DNA of 64,000 bases from the NCBI RefSeq assembly GCF_009914755.1, contig NC_060934.1; one strand, written 5' to 3'. The notes below the pieces were generated by a model that saw only the letters and a list, made by a program, of their open reading frames with translations, was not told the origin of the DNA and did no database searches. The stretch comes from the human T2T-CHM13v2.0 reference genome, Homo sapiens. Both the position numbers and the translations under genes were made by a program. Positions within the stretch are counted from its first letter, which is position 1. Every line of letters starts with the position of its first letter. Positions 26,486 to 43,389 of this stretch are shown in pieces.

Positions 26486-29292
26486 GGCGCTTTATATCAA
26501 TTTATTAATTTTAGAAATTTGCATTATGCCAAATTTAGTGGAAATGTATGTGGACATGTTCATGCTTTATCTCAAGGATGCAGACACAGTTGGTGATTTT
26601 CTTCATATTTAGTGAAAATAATTATGTATATACTTTAAGTCCCGATCATCACATCCTGGGCATATTCCCCTGACAAGAAGCCATAGAAGACATTTTCAAA
26701 GATCTTATTTGCAACATTTACTGTTCTGCAACATACACTAAATTTAGATGACCTTTACTTGGAGATTTTATGCATGAGACATGGATGTGTTTATTGTATA
26801 CATTTATATTTATATACATATATATTTCTGTATCTATATCATATACACACAATTGCATACACACAATTTTACACACAATTTCATATAAATGTATTTGCAG
26901 GTTGGCAAGAGGGCCCAATGATCCCTAGTATAAGTGTATTTGCACCTGTTTTTTGTTTGTGTGTGCTTATTTTCCAGCTGTGTTTATTTTATACATTTAC
27001 ATTTATAGATGTGTATATTTTTCTCTATATATTATAGTGATTACACACAATTTCATCATTATGTAAGATAGCTATATTAACTATATGTTTTATAGGAAAT
27101 AGATATTTGTGCACATATATGCATACATACATACAAATAAAGCACTATTAGTAGGCCTCAAAAACAGTGCTGTATGAATACAGTGACCATATTCTAAGAA
27201 GTGGATGGCTGTCTATAAATAATGACTTATGCATGCTATTTCTCCCACTCCTACACTTACCAAGATGAAGGGGTTTTCCCAGCTTTCACTTGAATAAACT
27301 CTTGGAAATGAGATTCTCTTCTTTTGATTATTTGACAAATTTATACCAAAATAGTGGGCTTTTATAATCAATATCTTTATGATTGATTTTCCTAAATATT
27401 ATTTTTTTAAACATTGAATTGTATCCCTTGTTTGTCTTTTATTTTCCACAAGCAGATGGAACTTCCTCCCCCACAAGCAGATGGAAGAACCTGTGCAGTG
27501 TCACTTCGGGGAAGCTACGTGGCAGGGTGGAAGTAGAATGAACCTGCACATTTTTAAAACATTTTTTTACTTTGGTCCTTGGAGGACCCAAGGGACTTGT
27601 AAAGAAGAAGAAGGGGGTAGACTGTGAGTTTGTAGCTAAAAGAAGAAGAGAGATGACCCAGCAACCTAGAGAAGCAGGAAGAAAATGTGTGTTCCACCTT
27701 CCTCTCCTCCCCAGAATTCTGCAGTGTGTGGAGAAGAGTAGAGTGGTCTCCGGCCTCCATGAGAGGGCCTGGACCAGACCCTGCTGAATGCAGAGAGCTA
27801 TCTGCAGGGTGAGCGTCCAGGCAGACAGGACCCAGGGTGGCCGCACAAAAGATTCCCCCAGTACGGTGAGGTGTAGAAGCAGCAGCGAGCCAGCACTTCT
27901 GAAGGAGATGACTGAGCTCAATTCTTCTTTTCTGAAGAGGCTTTGCTCCTAAGGAGTCCCTGTACTTCTCTTTCTGCCAGAGTAAACCTAGCTTCCATAC
28001 ACTTACTGTCAAGGCACGTGACAACTCTATAGCACCCCCCAGGAATCATCAAAATCTGAACTAAAAACCCAGAGCATAGGCGGTTGGCTGCTGAGTGACC
28101 CCCAACAAAGGCAAGGACAGTAGGGTCATTGCAGACCTCAGGTCTTACTACTCTCCAGTGAGGAGGGAGGAGACTCCAAATGGTTGCTGTCACCCAGACC
28201 TCCTCCCGATATGCTCACGCAGAGAGGATGAGGCAGAAGAGCCACTGCCTGCCTTGCCACTCACCTCCGATACTTGGCTTTATCCTTTGTGTCTCACTCT
28301 AGGACTATTTATTCGTTTCCTGGTGCTCTAGGACACAGCAGAGAGAGCTGACTGGCTATTCTGGGATGAATGGAGATGCCAAAAGCCTATGGAACCGGGT
28401 AATATCAGGTGATTTTCCATTCAAGTCCTATCTGGTTGGTACCTCCATGAGATTTTAAAAATAGAAAAGACGAGGCTTTCTGTAGGTCCATGTATTTCAG
28501 CCTGGCCTTTGGATGCAGAGGCCAGCTGGGAAGCTAGCAGTGCTTCTGGCCAAGACTAGATCCCTAGCGCAGAGCCTCAGGGCTCTCTGTAGCTTCCCAG
28601 CTTGTGCATGCACAGTTCATATCTGACATGATAGCATCACATCACTGCGCAAGCTAAGCTTTAGTATGGTGACAGACACTATCCATTCACTGAGTCAGCA
28701 GTGTCCAAGAGACTTTTTCTGATGTGGTTTTCATTGCCTGCCAACAATTTCGGAGTCTAGAAAGCCAGAACCCTGTTTTCCATGTGTTTTATTTTTATGA
28801 AAGAAACTTCATGCACCTGACTCCTCAAGCACCTCAAGAACAACTGCAGAATTTTCTCAATCCAGATGAAACTGGCTGGAACAAACTTCCTCAGAATTGA
28901 GGAGCCTTCAGAATCTGACCCATTTTCCTGGTTCCTGAAAGCTGTCAATGGTCCTCAGCAGAGACCTTCCCTGGCCTCACTGTCCCTCTGGCCTTTTACC
29001 ATCACGCTCCTCCCGCACTCACACTGCCCCCAGCAGGTGTTGAAGGCTCAGACCTGGACTTTCTTTCTCTCTGCACAAAGGCTCTTCTCCACCCACTTAA
29101 ACGGGGCACCACATAAGCACTTAAGGTGTTCAAAAGGAGAGCACCGATCCTGACTGCCAGGTTGTGGGGATGTGGACAACTTTTGCACTGGAGGGTGATG
29201 GCACCTGGGCTGGGTCTGGTTACAGTGGTGGGCTGGTGTTTGCCATCAGTGTAGGGTCACATGGAAGTGACGGGGTAAAACTCCTGTGGTCA

Positions 29293-29610
29293 GGCCGGGC
29301 GCGGTGGCTCACACCTGTAATCCCAGCATTTTGGGAGGTCGAGGAAAGCAGATCACCTGAGGTCAGGAGTTCGAGACCAGCCTGGCCAACATGGAGAAAC
29401 CCCATCTCTACTAAAAATACAAAAATTATCTGGACGTGGTGGTCCATGCCTGTAATCCCCGCTACTGGGGAGGCTGAGGCAGGAGAATTGCTTGAACCTG
29501 TGAGGCAGAGGTTGCAGTGAGCCGAGATCATGCCACTGCACCCCAGCCTGGGTGGCAGAGTGACACCACGTCTCAAAAAAAAAAAAAAACCCACAAAACA
29601 AAACAAAAAA
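29293..29610 (+). mobile_element. AluSx inserted in an array unit
   Basis: Full Alu; TSD-like aaaactcctgtg / aaaatctcctgtg. Confidence 0.9.
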
Positions 29611-29834
29611 TCTCCTGTGATCTTTGTGTCTCCCTTCACAGTTAGCAGGTGGTAAGATGGCCTAGTGGCCCCTAGTGTAAATGTATTTGCATCTGCTTTT
29701 ATGTTTGTGTGTGTTTATTTTCTGGTTGTGTTTATTTTATATATTTAAATTTATATATGTCTATATATTTATCCCTATATATTATACACCTATGTCTGTA
29801 TATATGATATCTATATTTACTGAGGTATAGATAC

Positions 29835-42094: not shown

Positions 42095-42112
42095 TGCCAC
42101 AAGGTGGCAGAA
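42095..42112 (+). promoter_or_regulatory. CTCF motif
   Basis: tgccacaaggtggcagaa. Confidence 0.65.
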
Positions 42113-43389
42113 AAGCAGAGTGTTTTCCAGAGAACTTGGAAGTACATCTGGGGTGTGTGTGTGTGTGTGTGTGTGTGTGTATGTGAGATCCTCCCAGTGA
42201 AAGTGCATCTGTGTGTGTGTGTGTGTGTATGTATGTGTGTTTATGTGAGATCCTCCAGGGAACGTGGAATCACATCTGCTTTGTGGGGTTATGTGTGATT
42301 TTGTGAGATTTGGGGATTTTTAAAAATATTTATCTTTATATATATATGGAGAAATACATGTTCATGCATGTAATTACGTGTAGTATCTCTAGTTAGATAT
42401 AGCTAAGTTGCCTCTCACCTACATGAAGAAACACCATCTTTCACTATAAGACAGCATCACATAGTTTATGTTTAAACATCTCTATTTTAATTCTTATTTA
42501 CTTATATGTTTACCATATATTTACATATGGTATATATTTGTTTATATATTTAAAAATATACACATTAATGTGTGTGTGTATCGGTTTCTTTCTAGTTCTA
42601 TTTTGGCTGGTGCCCTCTATGTGTAAAAAACTCTCTGACTGACAGAGTGAGCCACACTGTTTCTCCAGATCAGCGATTTTAGATTTTAACATCTAAATGT
42701 CTCACCCTTTTACCAGCAGTTTGAATATCCAACCCATAATCATCTTCCCAAATCGAATTCTGTATAGACTCTCAAAATATGTCTCTCATTTCCTCATGCC
42801 AACTGCATACTTCAGAATTTATTAAACTGCCATAGAAAATAATATTACATTTAATTTAATTTCAAGGACATCTTCTAGCCTGCCTGAAATTAGGCCCCTT
42901 TCCCTCTAAGGTATTCCTGCCTGAGAGGTGCACCTTGGGCCTCACGTGTGCTCAACACAAGTTGCTCAGTTTTGCTCCCCTTGCTCTCTGCTCCCTGATG
43001 ACCCTCCTTCATAGAAATGAAACTCCAGTGTACCCAGAAGTTTTTCTTCTTTACTTGTTCCAATGAAAGGAGGCAAACCATCCCAAAGAAGCAAAGGTCA
43101 GGTTATAATATTAATAATTATTTTATTGAAAGTCTGACTGTAACAGAAAAGAAGTACAGGGCAGGAAATAAGTTACACCTCAGGCCCAAGCCAGGAAAAA
43201 ACTTGGCCTGCCTTCCCCATTCGGACTTTCTGCCTCACCCCTGACCTGCTTCCAGTGGCTGGGCCTAGTTTACCAGCTTCTTCTGGAAATGCCTTAGAAA
43301 TCTCAAGAGCTCAGAGTGAAAGTCAAACTAACTCCTGGCACCAGAAGGAGAAGGTGACTTTTCTTCATTCTAATCTGGAGTCTTCTCTA

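What the first reader, a model, noticed from the sequence alone, without database searches (positions are those of the whole stretch)
28730..42700. Ancient degenerate local repeat array forming a unidirectional CTCF cluster (candidate chromatin super-anchor)
Seen: at least 5 homologous units, not resembling any interspersed repeat I recognise, in the order B module, GC-richer body, D module, TA-rich spacer. Each D module has two CTCF-like motifs in the same orientation. Motif 1 copies are at 29184 tgcactggagggtgatgg, 30901, 32674 cccactagaggacgatgg, 33711 and 41969 tctactagagggaaatgg. Motif 2 copies are at 29640 agttagcaggtggtaaga, 31001 tgccagtaggtggcagca, 32801, 33838 tgctagtaggtggcatga and 42095 tgccacaaggtggcagaa. 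Units are interrupted by AluS elements, a MER34/39-like LTR and an L1PA4, so the array predates them. Established: co-oriented CTCF arrays act as strong loop anchors or boundaries (IGH 3'CBEs; the CTCF-bearing local repeats at FIRRE and DXZ4). Inference: this is a decayed macrosatellite-like architectural element whose motifs may be under selection.
Basis: partly seen in the sequence, partly recalled or inferred. Interest (0 to 1): 0.85.

Follow-up and report, generated by a model that had tools for sequence, protein, structure and literature searches.

The report
Decayed repeat array with CTCF-like motifs
A real but heavily decayed tandem repeat near the chromosome 10 centromere keeps only two or three good CTCF-type motifs, belongs to a small repeat family found on many chromosomes, and shows no sequence sign of being a special chromatin anchor.

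Summary
The repeat array is real. It has five units of about 0.85-1.75 kb plus partial units at both ends, from 26.9 to 42.68 kb. Units are 60-72% identical and are interrupted by two Alus, an older interspersed repeat and a full-length L1.

All ten motif strings sit at the stated coordinates. With a CTCF matrix recalled from memory, only two are strong (31000 and 42094, both + strand). One is moderate (32672), one is weak (33837), and six fall below p=1e-4. Weak reverse-strand matches also occur.

The array is not a unique local element:
- Related units lie on chr1, 2, 3, 4, 5, 6, 7, 11 and 14, tandemly on chr7 and chr2.
- The window copy is one of three chr10 duplicates (about 9-12% diverged, sharing the Alus).
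- It is cut off at 42680-42683, where a chr11-like duplicon begins.

Motif positions are not clearly better kept than the rest of the unit, whether among old copies or among duplicates (Fisher p=0.18). One motif that is still strong in both paralogs has decayed here.

Best reading: a neutral fossil of an old low-copy repeat whose ancestral unit carried CTCF-type motifs, leaving two or three ordinary candidate sites. CTCF binding, Dfam identity and cross-species conservation could not be tested.

The parts
26902..27135 (+). Partial unit 0 (end of D module and TA-rich spacer; unit positions about 1173-1428)
28325..29286 (+). Unit 1, body and first part of D (unit positions 214-1147). It has no B module and is preceded by 27236-28324, a sequence found at only 4 loci in the genome.
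29287..29616 (+). Alu inserted in the D module of unit 1, between motif 1 and motif 2. The chr10:26.91 Mb paralog shares it; the chr2 copy lacks it.
29617..29838 (+). Unit 1, rest of D and start of spacer (unit positions 1131-1394)
29839..30410 (+). Old high-copy interspersed repeat inserted in the spacer of unit 1 (670 first-look candidates; 41 scored full-size copies other than the window's own, one 88% paralogue and 40 at 69-77% identical). The family name was not tested.
30411..30617 (+). Unit 1, end of spacer (unit positions 1427-1646)
30618..31455 (+). Unit 2: B module, then D and spacer. Unit positions 154-938 are absent.
31000..31018 (+). Strong CTCF-type motif (motif 2 of unit 2), 21.0 bits, exact match to the recalled IUPAC core, no CpG
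31456..33250 (+). Unit 3, complete in layout, with an Alu on the minus strand at 32017-32287
32672..32690 (+). Moderate CTCF-type motif (motif 1 of unit 3), 14.5 bits
33251..34250 (+). Unit 4: B, short body, D and spacer. Unit positions about 213-800 are absent. Weak motif 2 at 33837-33855 (8.7 bits).
34251..40931 (-). One L1-mediated insertion flanked by an 11-base target-site duplication. It holds a full-length L1 at 34776-40920 plus 515 bases (34256-34770), within the 34251-34775 stretch beyond the L1 3' end, whose only other copy in the genome is on chr7. The chr10:27.39 Mb paralog shows the empty site.
40932..42588 (+). Unit 5, the most complete unit (1657 bases here; 40932-42599 was used as the reference)
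42094..42112 (+). Strong CTCF-type motif (motif 2 of unit 5), 20.3 bits, no CpG
42589..42681 (+). Truncated next unit (B module positions 4-95 only). Both chr10 paralogs continue to position 385.
42680..42683 (.). Junction of two duplicons. Homology to chr10:26.9/27.39 Mb ends here and homology to chr11:80.67 Mb (89-90% over more than 5 kb) begins.

Best explanation
This is the fossil of an old, low-copy repeat family with a unit of about 1.66 kb: B module, body, D module, TA-rich spacer. The family exists as tandem arrays or fragments on many chromosomes.

The ancestral unit carried a strong CTCF-type motif (motif 2) and a weaker one about 127 bases upstream (motif 1), on the same strand.

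The copy in this window is one of three chromosome-10 duplicates made in primates after two Alus had inserted. It was placed, or later broken, next to a chr11-derived duplicon, as is usual in pericentromeric mosaics (inference). An L1 split it afterwards.

The units have since drifted apart at roughly the neutral rate. Only two strong motifs (31000, 42094) and one moderate motif (32672) survive, all on the + strand.

If CTCF binds them they would work as ordinary forward-oriented sites that stall cohesin and pair with reverse sites at higher coordinates. That step is inferred from general knowledge, not shown here. Nothing in the sequence marks the array as a selected multi-site anchor.
For: Array and layout: (0 hits in each of 10 shuffled controls against 10 real hits).

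Dispersed family: units or fragments at chr1:158.13, chr2:97.58, chr2:97.81/97.91, chr3:4.14, chr4:174.72, chr5:101.59, chr6:131.72, chr7:55.80 (about 2.3 tandem units), chr11:73.13 and chr14:63.38 Mb. A 283-base piece also lies in pericentromeric duplicons.

Low copy number: 6-115 first-look candidates per query, against 670 for the inserted repeat at 29839.

Tree of 18 copies: old lineages radiate from one point. There are 15 inner branches; 7 are unresolved and the 6 well-supported ones are all recent-duplicate groups. Old lineages are about 0.15-0.4 changes per site deep, counting the stems of the duplicate groups.

Duplicates: the window differs from chr10:27.39 Mb by 9.8-11.8%, from chr10:26.91 Mb by 8.9-12.0%, and from chr2 by 22-30%. 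The Alus lie inside the aligned blocks. The junction is at 42680-42683, and the paralogs extend further into the next unit.

Motif quality: 2 strong, 1 moderate, 1 weak and 6 sub-threshold of 10.

Decay: motif 1 of unit 5 scores 18.7 and 15.7 in the two paralogs but 6.4 here.

Conservation across 10 old copies: column identity is 0.63 for motif 1 and 0.70 for motif 2, against 0.626 overall. 48.5% and 7.8% of 19-column windows do as well, and seven other non-overlapping windows beat motif 2.

Conservation across 15 copies: match to the majority base is 0.77 and 0.80 in the motif cores against 0.742 elsewhere.

Duplicate pairs: 25 of 247 motif positions changed against 1412 of 10787 other positions, Fisher p=0.18.

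No other function found: no convincing protein domain in 94 open frames, no Rfam match and no conserved RNA fold.
Against: Motif positions are kept slightly better than average in every test:
- 10.1% against 13.1% substitutions in duplicate pairs.
- 0.77-0.80 against 0.74 match to the majority base.
- Observed mean motif-2 score of 7.6 against 2.5 in a crude uniform-substitution simulation, with 2 strong copies seen where 0.6 of 13 were expected.

Weak purifying selection therefore cannot be excluded, and these tests have little power.

Both strong sites lack CpG, so methylation would not block binding (read directly from the sequence).

Matches to the IUPAC core with at most 2 mismatches are enriched in the window (15 against 6.9 expected; 1 of 100 shuffles reaches 15), and 10 of the 15 lie between 27.4 and 42.2 kb.

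The CTCF matrix and consensus were recalled from memory, not taken from JASPAR. No ChIP, Hi-C or cross-species data could be consulted. Which chr10 copy is ancestral is inferred without an outgroup.
Confidence: 0.65

Rival explanations
1. The array is a working architectural element. Several co-oriented CTCF sites in the repeat units together form a strong loop anchor or domain boundary, and selection maintains the motifs.
For: - Two motifs with p<1e-7 and one of about 3e-6 lie on the same strand within 11 kb.
- They sit at homologous positions of an old repeat whose majority motif 2 still scores 18.7 bits.
- Motif columns are slightly better conserved than average.
- The paralog at chr10:27.39 Mb keeps three repeat-unit motifs of 16 bits or more on one strand, plus a fourth of 16.1 bits in the flanking repeat.
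Against: - 6 of 10 motif copies fall below p=1e-4.
- The conservation excess is not significant (Fisher p=0.18). Other blocks of the unit are better conserved than either motif.
- A motif that is strong in both paralogs was lost in this copy by two substitutions.
- The locus is a truncated duplicate in a duplicon mosaic.
- The annotation supplied with the finding lists no RefSeq functional element in the window.
Confidence: 0.15
2. The units are fragments of an ancient interspersed repeat that is already catalogued in Dfam or Repbase, for example one of the unclassified eutherian families. The 'array' is then a cluster or tandem form of a known element. This concerns naming and does not exclude the best explanation.
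For: - Copies lie on at least ten chromosomes with a star-like tree and branch depths typical of old mammalian repeats.
- Each new query from a distant copy found further loci, so the family is larger than what was seen.
- Three copies start near unit position 508-519, and two end near 445-447.
- Many ancient human repeats remain unclassified in Repbase (PMC5753468, Table 1 passage).
Against: - Very low copy number compared with a true interspersed repeat searched the same way (6-115 against 670 candidates).
- No clear termini, target-site duplications or tails at copy ends.
- No transposase or retroviral domains.
- True tandem continuity through the putative ends on chr7 and chr10.
Confidence: 0.3

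Closest known systems
CTCF-binding tandem repeats DXZ4, FIRRE and ICCE on the X chromosome, and the 1q23.3 tRNA repeat (PMC3218863, PMC6125249, PMC6985041, PMC4041453; seen only as search listing and abstract starts)
   Same: Tandem units of about a kilobase or more, each ancestrally carrying a CTCF-type motif in one orientation.
   Different: - Only 5-6 units, 60-72% identical, with no homogenisation.
- Only 2-3 motifs are still credible.
- No detectable sequence similarity. Hits on the X were only GT/TA-rich stretches, and the D-module queries gave none.
- Binding is untested.
- The family is autosomal and dispersed.
Fossil repeat-borne CTCF sites (Schmidt et al. 2012, PMC3368268; passages read)
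   Same: An old mammalian repeat family whose copies carry a CTCF-type motif at a fixed position. This fits their proposal that ancient repeat expansions seeded CTCF sites; their examples are an amniote SINE and MamRep564.
   Different: Their cases are defined by CTCF binding shared across species, and no binding data exist here. This family is far rarer, has a unit of about 1.66 kb, and forms tandem arrays. It was not tested whether it is one of their roughly 100 cases; Table S3 was not seen.
Pericentromeric and interstitial segmental-duplication mosaics
   Same: Blocks of many kilobases shared with chr10:26.9 Mb, chr10:27.39 Mb and chr11:80.67 Mb, abutting at a sharp junction about 2.7 Mb from the centromere (centromere position recalled).
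   Different: Identity of 85-91% is at or below the usual 90% cut-off for annotated duplications (cut-off recalled), so standard tracks may miss these.
Clustered CTCF sites at domain boundaries (Kentepozidou et al. 2020, PMC6945661; listing and abstract start only)
   Same: Several motif matches close together on one strand.
   Different: That class is defined by bound, conserved sites at measured boundaries. Here only sequence is available, and most motif copies are degraded.

Membership tests
CTCF-binding macrosatellite or local repeat (DXZ4 / FIRRE / ICCE type) | Tandem array of units of about 1 kb or more | tested here: met
   Five units of about 0.85-1.75 kb after removing inserts, plus two partial units; 0 of 10 shuffled controls gave hits.
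CTCF-binding macrosatellite or local repeat (DXZ4 / FIRRE / ICCE type) | High identity between units (homogenised array) | tested here: not met
   Units are 60-72% identical. TRF, whose longest period is 500, reports only microsatellites in the spacers.
CTCF-binding macrosatellite or local repeat (DXZ4 / FIRRE / ICCE type) | A competent CTCF motif in every, or nearly every, unit | tested here: not met
   Motif 2 is strong in 2 of 5 units. Motif 1 is moderate in 1 of 5. Overall 6 of 10 copies are below p=1e-4. The matrix was recalled from memory.
CTCF-binding macrosatellite or local repeat (DXZ4 / FIRRE / ICCE type) | CTCF occupancy and long-range contacts | not testable with these tools
CTCF-binding macrosatellite or local repeat (DXZ4 / FIRRE / ICCE type) | Sequence relationship to the X-linked repeats | tested here: not met
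   Whole-genome searches with unit pieces gave no X-chromosome hit outside GT/TA-rich spacer sequence. The search is BLAST-like, so very distant similarity could be missed.
Catalogued interspersed repeat (Dfam / Repbase family) | Copies dispersed on many chromosomes | tested here: met
   Copies on chr1, 2, 3, 4, 5, 6, 7, 10, 11 and 14, plus pericentromeric duplicons.
Catalogued interspersed repeat (Dfam / Repbase family) | Defined termini, target-site duplications or tails | tested here: inconclusive
   Starts recur near unit position 508-519 (3 copies) and ends near 445-447 (2 copies). No clear terminal signature is visible in the flanks.
Catalogued interspersed repeat (Dfam / Repbase family) | Match to a library consensus | not testable with these tools
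   No Dfam or RepeatMasker is available. NCBI's mask leaves even the L1 5' end (40181-40920) unmasked, so it says nothing about old repeats (hub table).
Segmental duplication | At least 1 kb shared with another locus at high identity (usual cut-off 90%, recalled) | tested here: inconclusive
   Blocks of many kilobases at 85-91% with chr10:26.90-26.914 and 27.385-27.395 Mb, and 89-90% with chr11:80.67 Mb. They are long enough, but identity straddles the cut-off.

The most novel reading that the evidence does not exclude
The units are survivors of a eutherian-age, uncatalogued repeat that carried a pair of co-oriented CTCF sites and spread both in tandem and between chromosomes. That would make it a concrete example of the ancient repeat-driven seeding of CTCF sites proposed by Schmidt et al.

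On this reading the surviving strong sites are bound. In this window they would be forward-oriented sites. At 10p12.1 the inverted duplicates at 26.91 Mb (+) and 27.39 Mb (-) would form a convergent pair of clusters about 472 kb apart.
Probability: 0.12. Interest if true: 0.6.

Novelty: new member of a known kind. Interest (0 to 1): 0.3.

Why it matters
If the surviving motifs are bound, this family would be a datable example of how an old repeat seeded CTCF sites, and of how later segmental duplication copied whole clusters of them to new places, including an inverted and therefore convergent pair at 10p12.1. As the evidence stands, it mainly shows that a striking motif pattern in a repeat can be inherited from the ancestral unit and need not reflect present function. 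The case for a 'super-anchor' at this locus is weak.

Tried and rejected
- Immunoglobulin V-segment relic. A body fragment hits chr2, 14, 15, 16 and 22 regions that I recalled as holding antibody gene segments and their dispersed copies. No V-exon hallmarks were found in six-frame translations around three such hits. The hits are one 283-base piece carried in pericentromeric duplicons.
- Protein coding. 94 open frames of 45 residues or more from the units were scanned against Pfam. Only one passed a curated cut-off: DUF3027, 26.4 against 25 bits, a 32-residue partial match in 33836-34003. It was absent from the equivalent frames of the other units and was judged to be chance.
- Structured RNA. 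No Rfam match at gathering score in 26000-44000. RNAalifold on 14 D modules gave -2.67 kcal/mol, with 1 of 10 pairs covarying.
- Tandem Repeats Finder. It found only microsatellites and a 62-base repeat in the unit-5 spacer.
- Profile search of the genome with a sequence-only model of the D module. The tool does not accept a model for this genome. Plain DNA queries from distant copies were used instead.
- Terminal hallmarks of a transposon. None were convincing.
- Literature. The search 'macrosatellite / CTCF / tandem repeat / 10p11' gave 100 papers with at least 3 of the 4 terms; 15 were listed and none is about this locus by title. The 10p11 entries in PMC2588610 are classical satellites and an ANKRD30A internal repeat, not this array (passages). 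The 'MamRep564' search returned 5 papers and gave no sequence to compare.
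Full report
**Observation**

A self-comparison of window 26000-44000 against the whole window shows many unit-to-unit matches of 60-72% identity. 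Examples are 32411-33023 against 33462-34068 (65.5% over 637 columns, E 3e-58) and 30833-31602 against 32608-33398 (E 1e-52).

With unit 5 (40932-42599) as an nhmmer query, the window gives 12 rows including self. The real stretch 26001-34260 gives 10 hits, while each of 10 block-shuffled versions gives none.

In unit-5 coordinates the layout is:
- partial unit at 26902-27135;
- unit 1 at 28325-30617, starting at unit position 214 and holding an Alu at 29287-29616 and another repeat at 29839-30410;
- unit 2 at 30618-31455, with positions 154-938 missing;
- unit 3 at 31456-33250, with an Alu at 32017-32287;
- unit 4 at 33251-34250, with positions about 213-800 missing;
- unit 5 at 40932-42588;
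- a truncated B module at 42589-42681.

B, body and D modules have 42-56% GC and spacers have 22-32%.

**The motifs**

All ten quoted strings are at the stated coordinates. I scored them with a CTCF count matrix recalled from memory, which approximates JASPAR MA0139.1. The thresholds are 7.35, 12.5 and 16.75 bits for p = 1e-4, 1e-5 and 1e-6.

| Unit | Motif 1 (bits) | Motif 2 (bits) |
|---|---|---|
| 1 | 6.4 | 1.6 |
| 2 | -8.0 | 21.0 |
| 3 | 14.5 | 0.7 |
| 4 | 6.5 | 8.7 |
| 5 | 6.4 | 20.3 |

So there are two strong sites, one moderate, one weak and six below threshold.

The recalled IUPAC core CCASYAGRKGGCRS with at most one mismatch finds exactly the two strong sites in 64 kb. The expectation is 0.54, and 10 of 100 shuffles reach two.

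With two mismatches there are 15 matches against 6.9 expected, and 1 of 100 shuffles reaches 15. Ten of the 15 lie between 27.4 and 42.2 kb.

Reverse-strand matches of 11-13 bits also lie in the units, at 29022, 29663, 31600 and 42092. 'Unidirectional' therefore holds for the strong sites only.

**Not a local repeat**

The assembly that holds the window can be searched. Unit pieces find related sequence at:
- chr10:27.385-27.391 Mb (inverted);
- chr10:26.908-26.914 Mb;
- chr2:97.81/97.91 and 97.58 Mb;
- chr7:55.80 Mb (about 2.3 tandem units);
- chr14:63.38, chr11:73.13, chr3:4.14, chr4:174.72, chr5:101.59, chr6:131.72 and chr1:158.13 Mb.

These come, mapped to unit coordinates.

A 283-base piece (unit positions 513-795) also occurs in many pericentromeric duplicons.

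The family is small. The first look found 6-115 candidates per query. The same tool found 670 for the repeat inserted at 29839-30440; apart from the window's own copy, 41 full-size copies were scored, one an 88% paralogue and 40 at 69-77% identity. The search scores only the best candidates, so these counts are lower bounds.

A tree of 18 copies is star-like. I left out unit 2, which lacks the body, and the chr3, chr6 and chr11 copies, which are too short. Of the 15 inner branches, 7 are unresolved and the 6 well-supported ones all join recent duplicates. Old lineages are about 0.15-0.4 changes per site deep, counting the stems of the duplicate groups. Units 3, 4 and 5 group only weakly (90/94).

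Such depths are typical of old mammalian repeats; this is inference from general knowledge.

**The window copy is a duplicate in a mosaic**

- Window 20104-42681 is collinear with chr10:26.90-26.914 Mb at 83-91% block identity, except that the stretch 30572-41397 is missing there.
- Window 7436-9357, 24590-27169, 30950-34248 and 40933-42681 match chr10:27.385-27.395 Mb in inverted orientation at 85-92%.
- Substitution differences outside Alus are 8.9-12.0% to the two chr10 paralogs and 22-30% to chr2.
- The Alus of units 1 and 3 lie inside the aligned blocks. The chr10 duplications therefore followed those insertions. The chr2 copy lacks the unit-1 Alu.
- Homology to the chr10 paralogs stops at 42681. 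From 42680 the window matches chr11:80.67 Mb at 89-90% for more than 5 kb.
- Both paralogs continue the last unit to position 385, where the window stops at about 95.

I infer that the window copy is a derived, truncated duplicate placed beside another duplicon. Without an outgroup this remains an inference.

**Are the motifs protected?**

Across 10 old copies and 494 usable columns, mean column identity is 0.626. Motif 1 scores 0.630 and motif 2 scores 0.703. Of all 19-column windows, 48.5% and 7.8% do as well, and seven non-overlapping windows beat motif 2.

Across 15 copies, match to the majority base is 0.770 and 0.803 in the two 14-base cores, against 0.742 elsewhere. Of 14-column windows, 36.6% and 13.4% are as high.

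In alignments of the window to its duplicates, 25 of 247 motif positions differ against 1412 of 10787 other positions (Fisher p = 0.18).

Motif 1 of unit 5 scores 18.7 and 15.7 in the two paralogs but 6.4 in the window. A strong site was therefore lost here after duplication.

A crude simulation used uniform substitutions and 0.742 retention per site. It expects 0.6 of 13 motif-2 copies to stay above 16.75 bits; 2 are seen. The observed mean score is 7.6 against 2.5 simulated.

The motifs are thus consistently a little better kept than average, but not significantly so. Other blocks of the unit are kept at least as well.

**What the units are not**
- No convincing protein domain in 94 open frames.
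- No Rfam family.
- No conserved RNA fold.
- No V-gene features near the duplicon hits.
- No clear transposon ends.
- No similarity to X-linked CTCF repeats beyond GT/TA-rich spacer sequence.

Whether a Dfam family covers the units could not be tested. NCBI's mask leaves even the L1 5' end unmasked, so it is uninformative here.

**Literature**

Schmidt et al. 2012 (PMC3368268, passages read) report about 100 deeply shared CTCF sites embedded in fossil repeats. This family would fit that idea if its sites are bound.

Kojima 2018 (PMC5753468, Table 1 passage) notes that most ancient human repeats remain unclassified.

My searches found no paper on this locus.

**Verdict**

The repeat is real and old, and its ancestral unit carried CTCF-type motifs. 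The present array is a drifting fossil in a duplicated, truncated copy, with two or three ordinary candidate CTCF sites on the + strand.

The super-anchor reading is possible but unsupported by sequence. It needs ChIP and contact data, a Dfam check and primate alignments.

Noticed in passing
window 34251-40931; L029 2103-2637 (chr7:144,815,103-144,815,637): The L1 insertion is bounded by an 11-base target-site duplication. Beyond its own 3' end it carries 515 bases whose only other genomic copy is on chr7, at 94% identity. This looks like a 3' transduction, yet no L1 sits beside the chr7 copy in this assembly.
   Followed up: yes
L012 4878, 5005, 6521 (+) and L009 2159, 3353, 3481, 7876 (-), i.e. 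chr10:26.913-26.915 Mb and 27.385-27.391 Mb: The two 10p12.1 paralogs are inverted relative to each other. Each keeps three or four CTCF-type motifs of 15.7-23.3 bits, giving convergent clusters about 472 kb apart. The 27.39 Mb copy has a better cluster than the window.
   Followed up: partly
window 42680-47798; L026 (chr11:80.670-80.675 Mb, minus strand): More than 5 kb immediately right of the array is 89-90% identical to chr11. The array therefore ends exactly at a junction between two duplicons.
   Followed up: partly
window 9357-24590 versus L010 256-258: About 15 kb of the window has no counterpart in the chr10:27.39 Mb paralog. This is either an insertion here or a deletion there. Part of it (20104 onward) is present in the chr10:26.90 Mb paralog.
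   Followed up: no
window 41444-41726 (unit positions 513-795); L018, L019, L020, L028: A 283-base piece of the unit body, 67-73% identical, is carried in duplicons on chr1, 2, 9, 10, 14, 15, 16 and 22, mostly near centromeres. It appears to be one old copy spread by later duplications.
   Followed up: partly
window 27236-28324: About 1.1 kb of GC-rich sequence stands where the B module and the start of unit 1 should be. It occurs at only four loci in the genome: here, chr10:26.909 Mb, and the chr2:97.81/97.91 Mb pair. Its origin is unexplained.
   Followed up: partly
window 42153-42294: A 62-base tandem repeat (2.3 copies, 79% matches) inside the spacer of unit 5, next to a GT microsatellite.
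   Followed up: no
window 49289-56019: A second full-length L1 in the same orientation, 93% (3' part) and 88% (5' part) identical to the one that splits the array.
   Followed up: no
L009 9740-9838: The chr10:27.39 Mb paralog has a fragment of about 100 bases that is 88% identical to unit 4 (window 33529-33639), inserted where the window has none. This may be a small conversion or insertion event.
   Followed up: no
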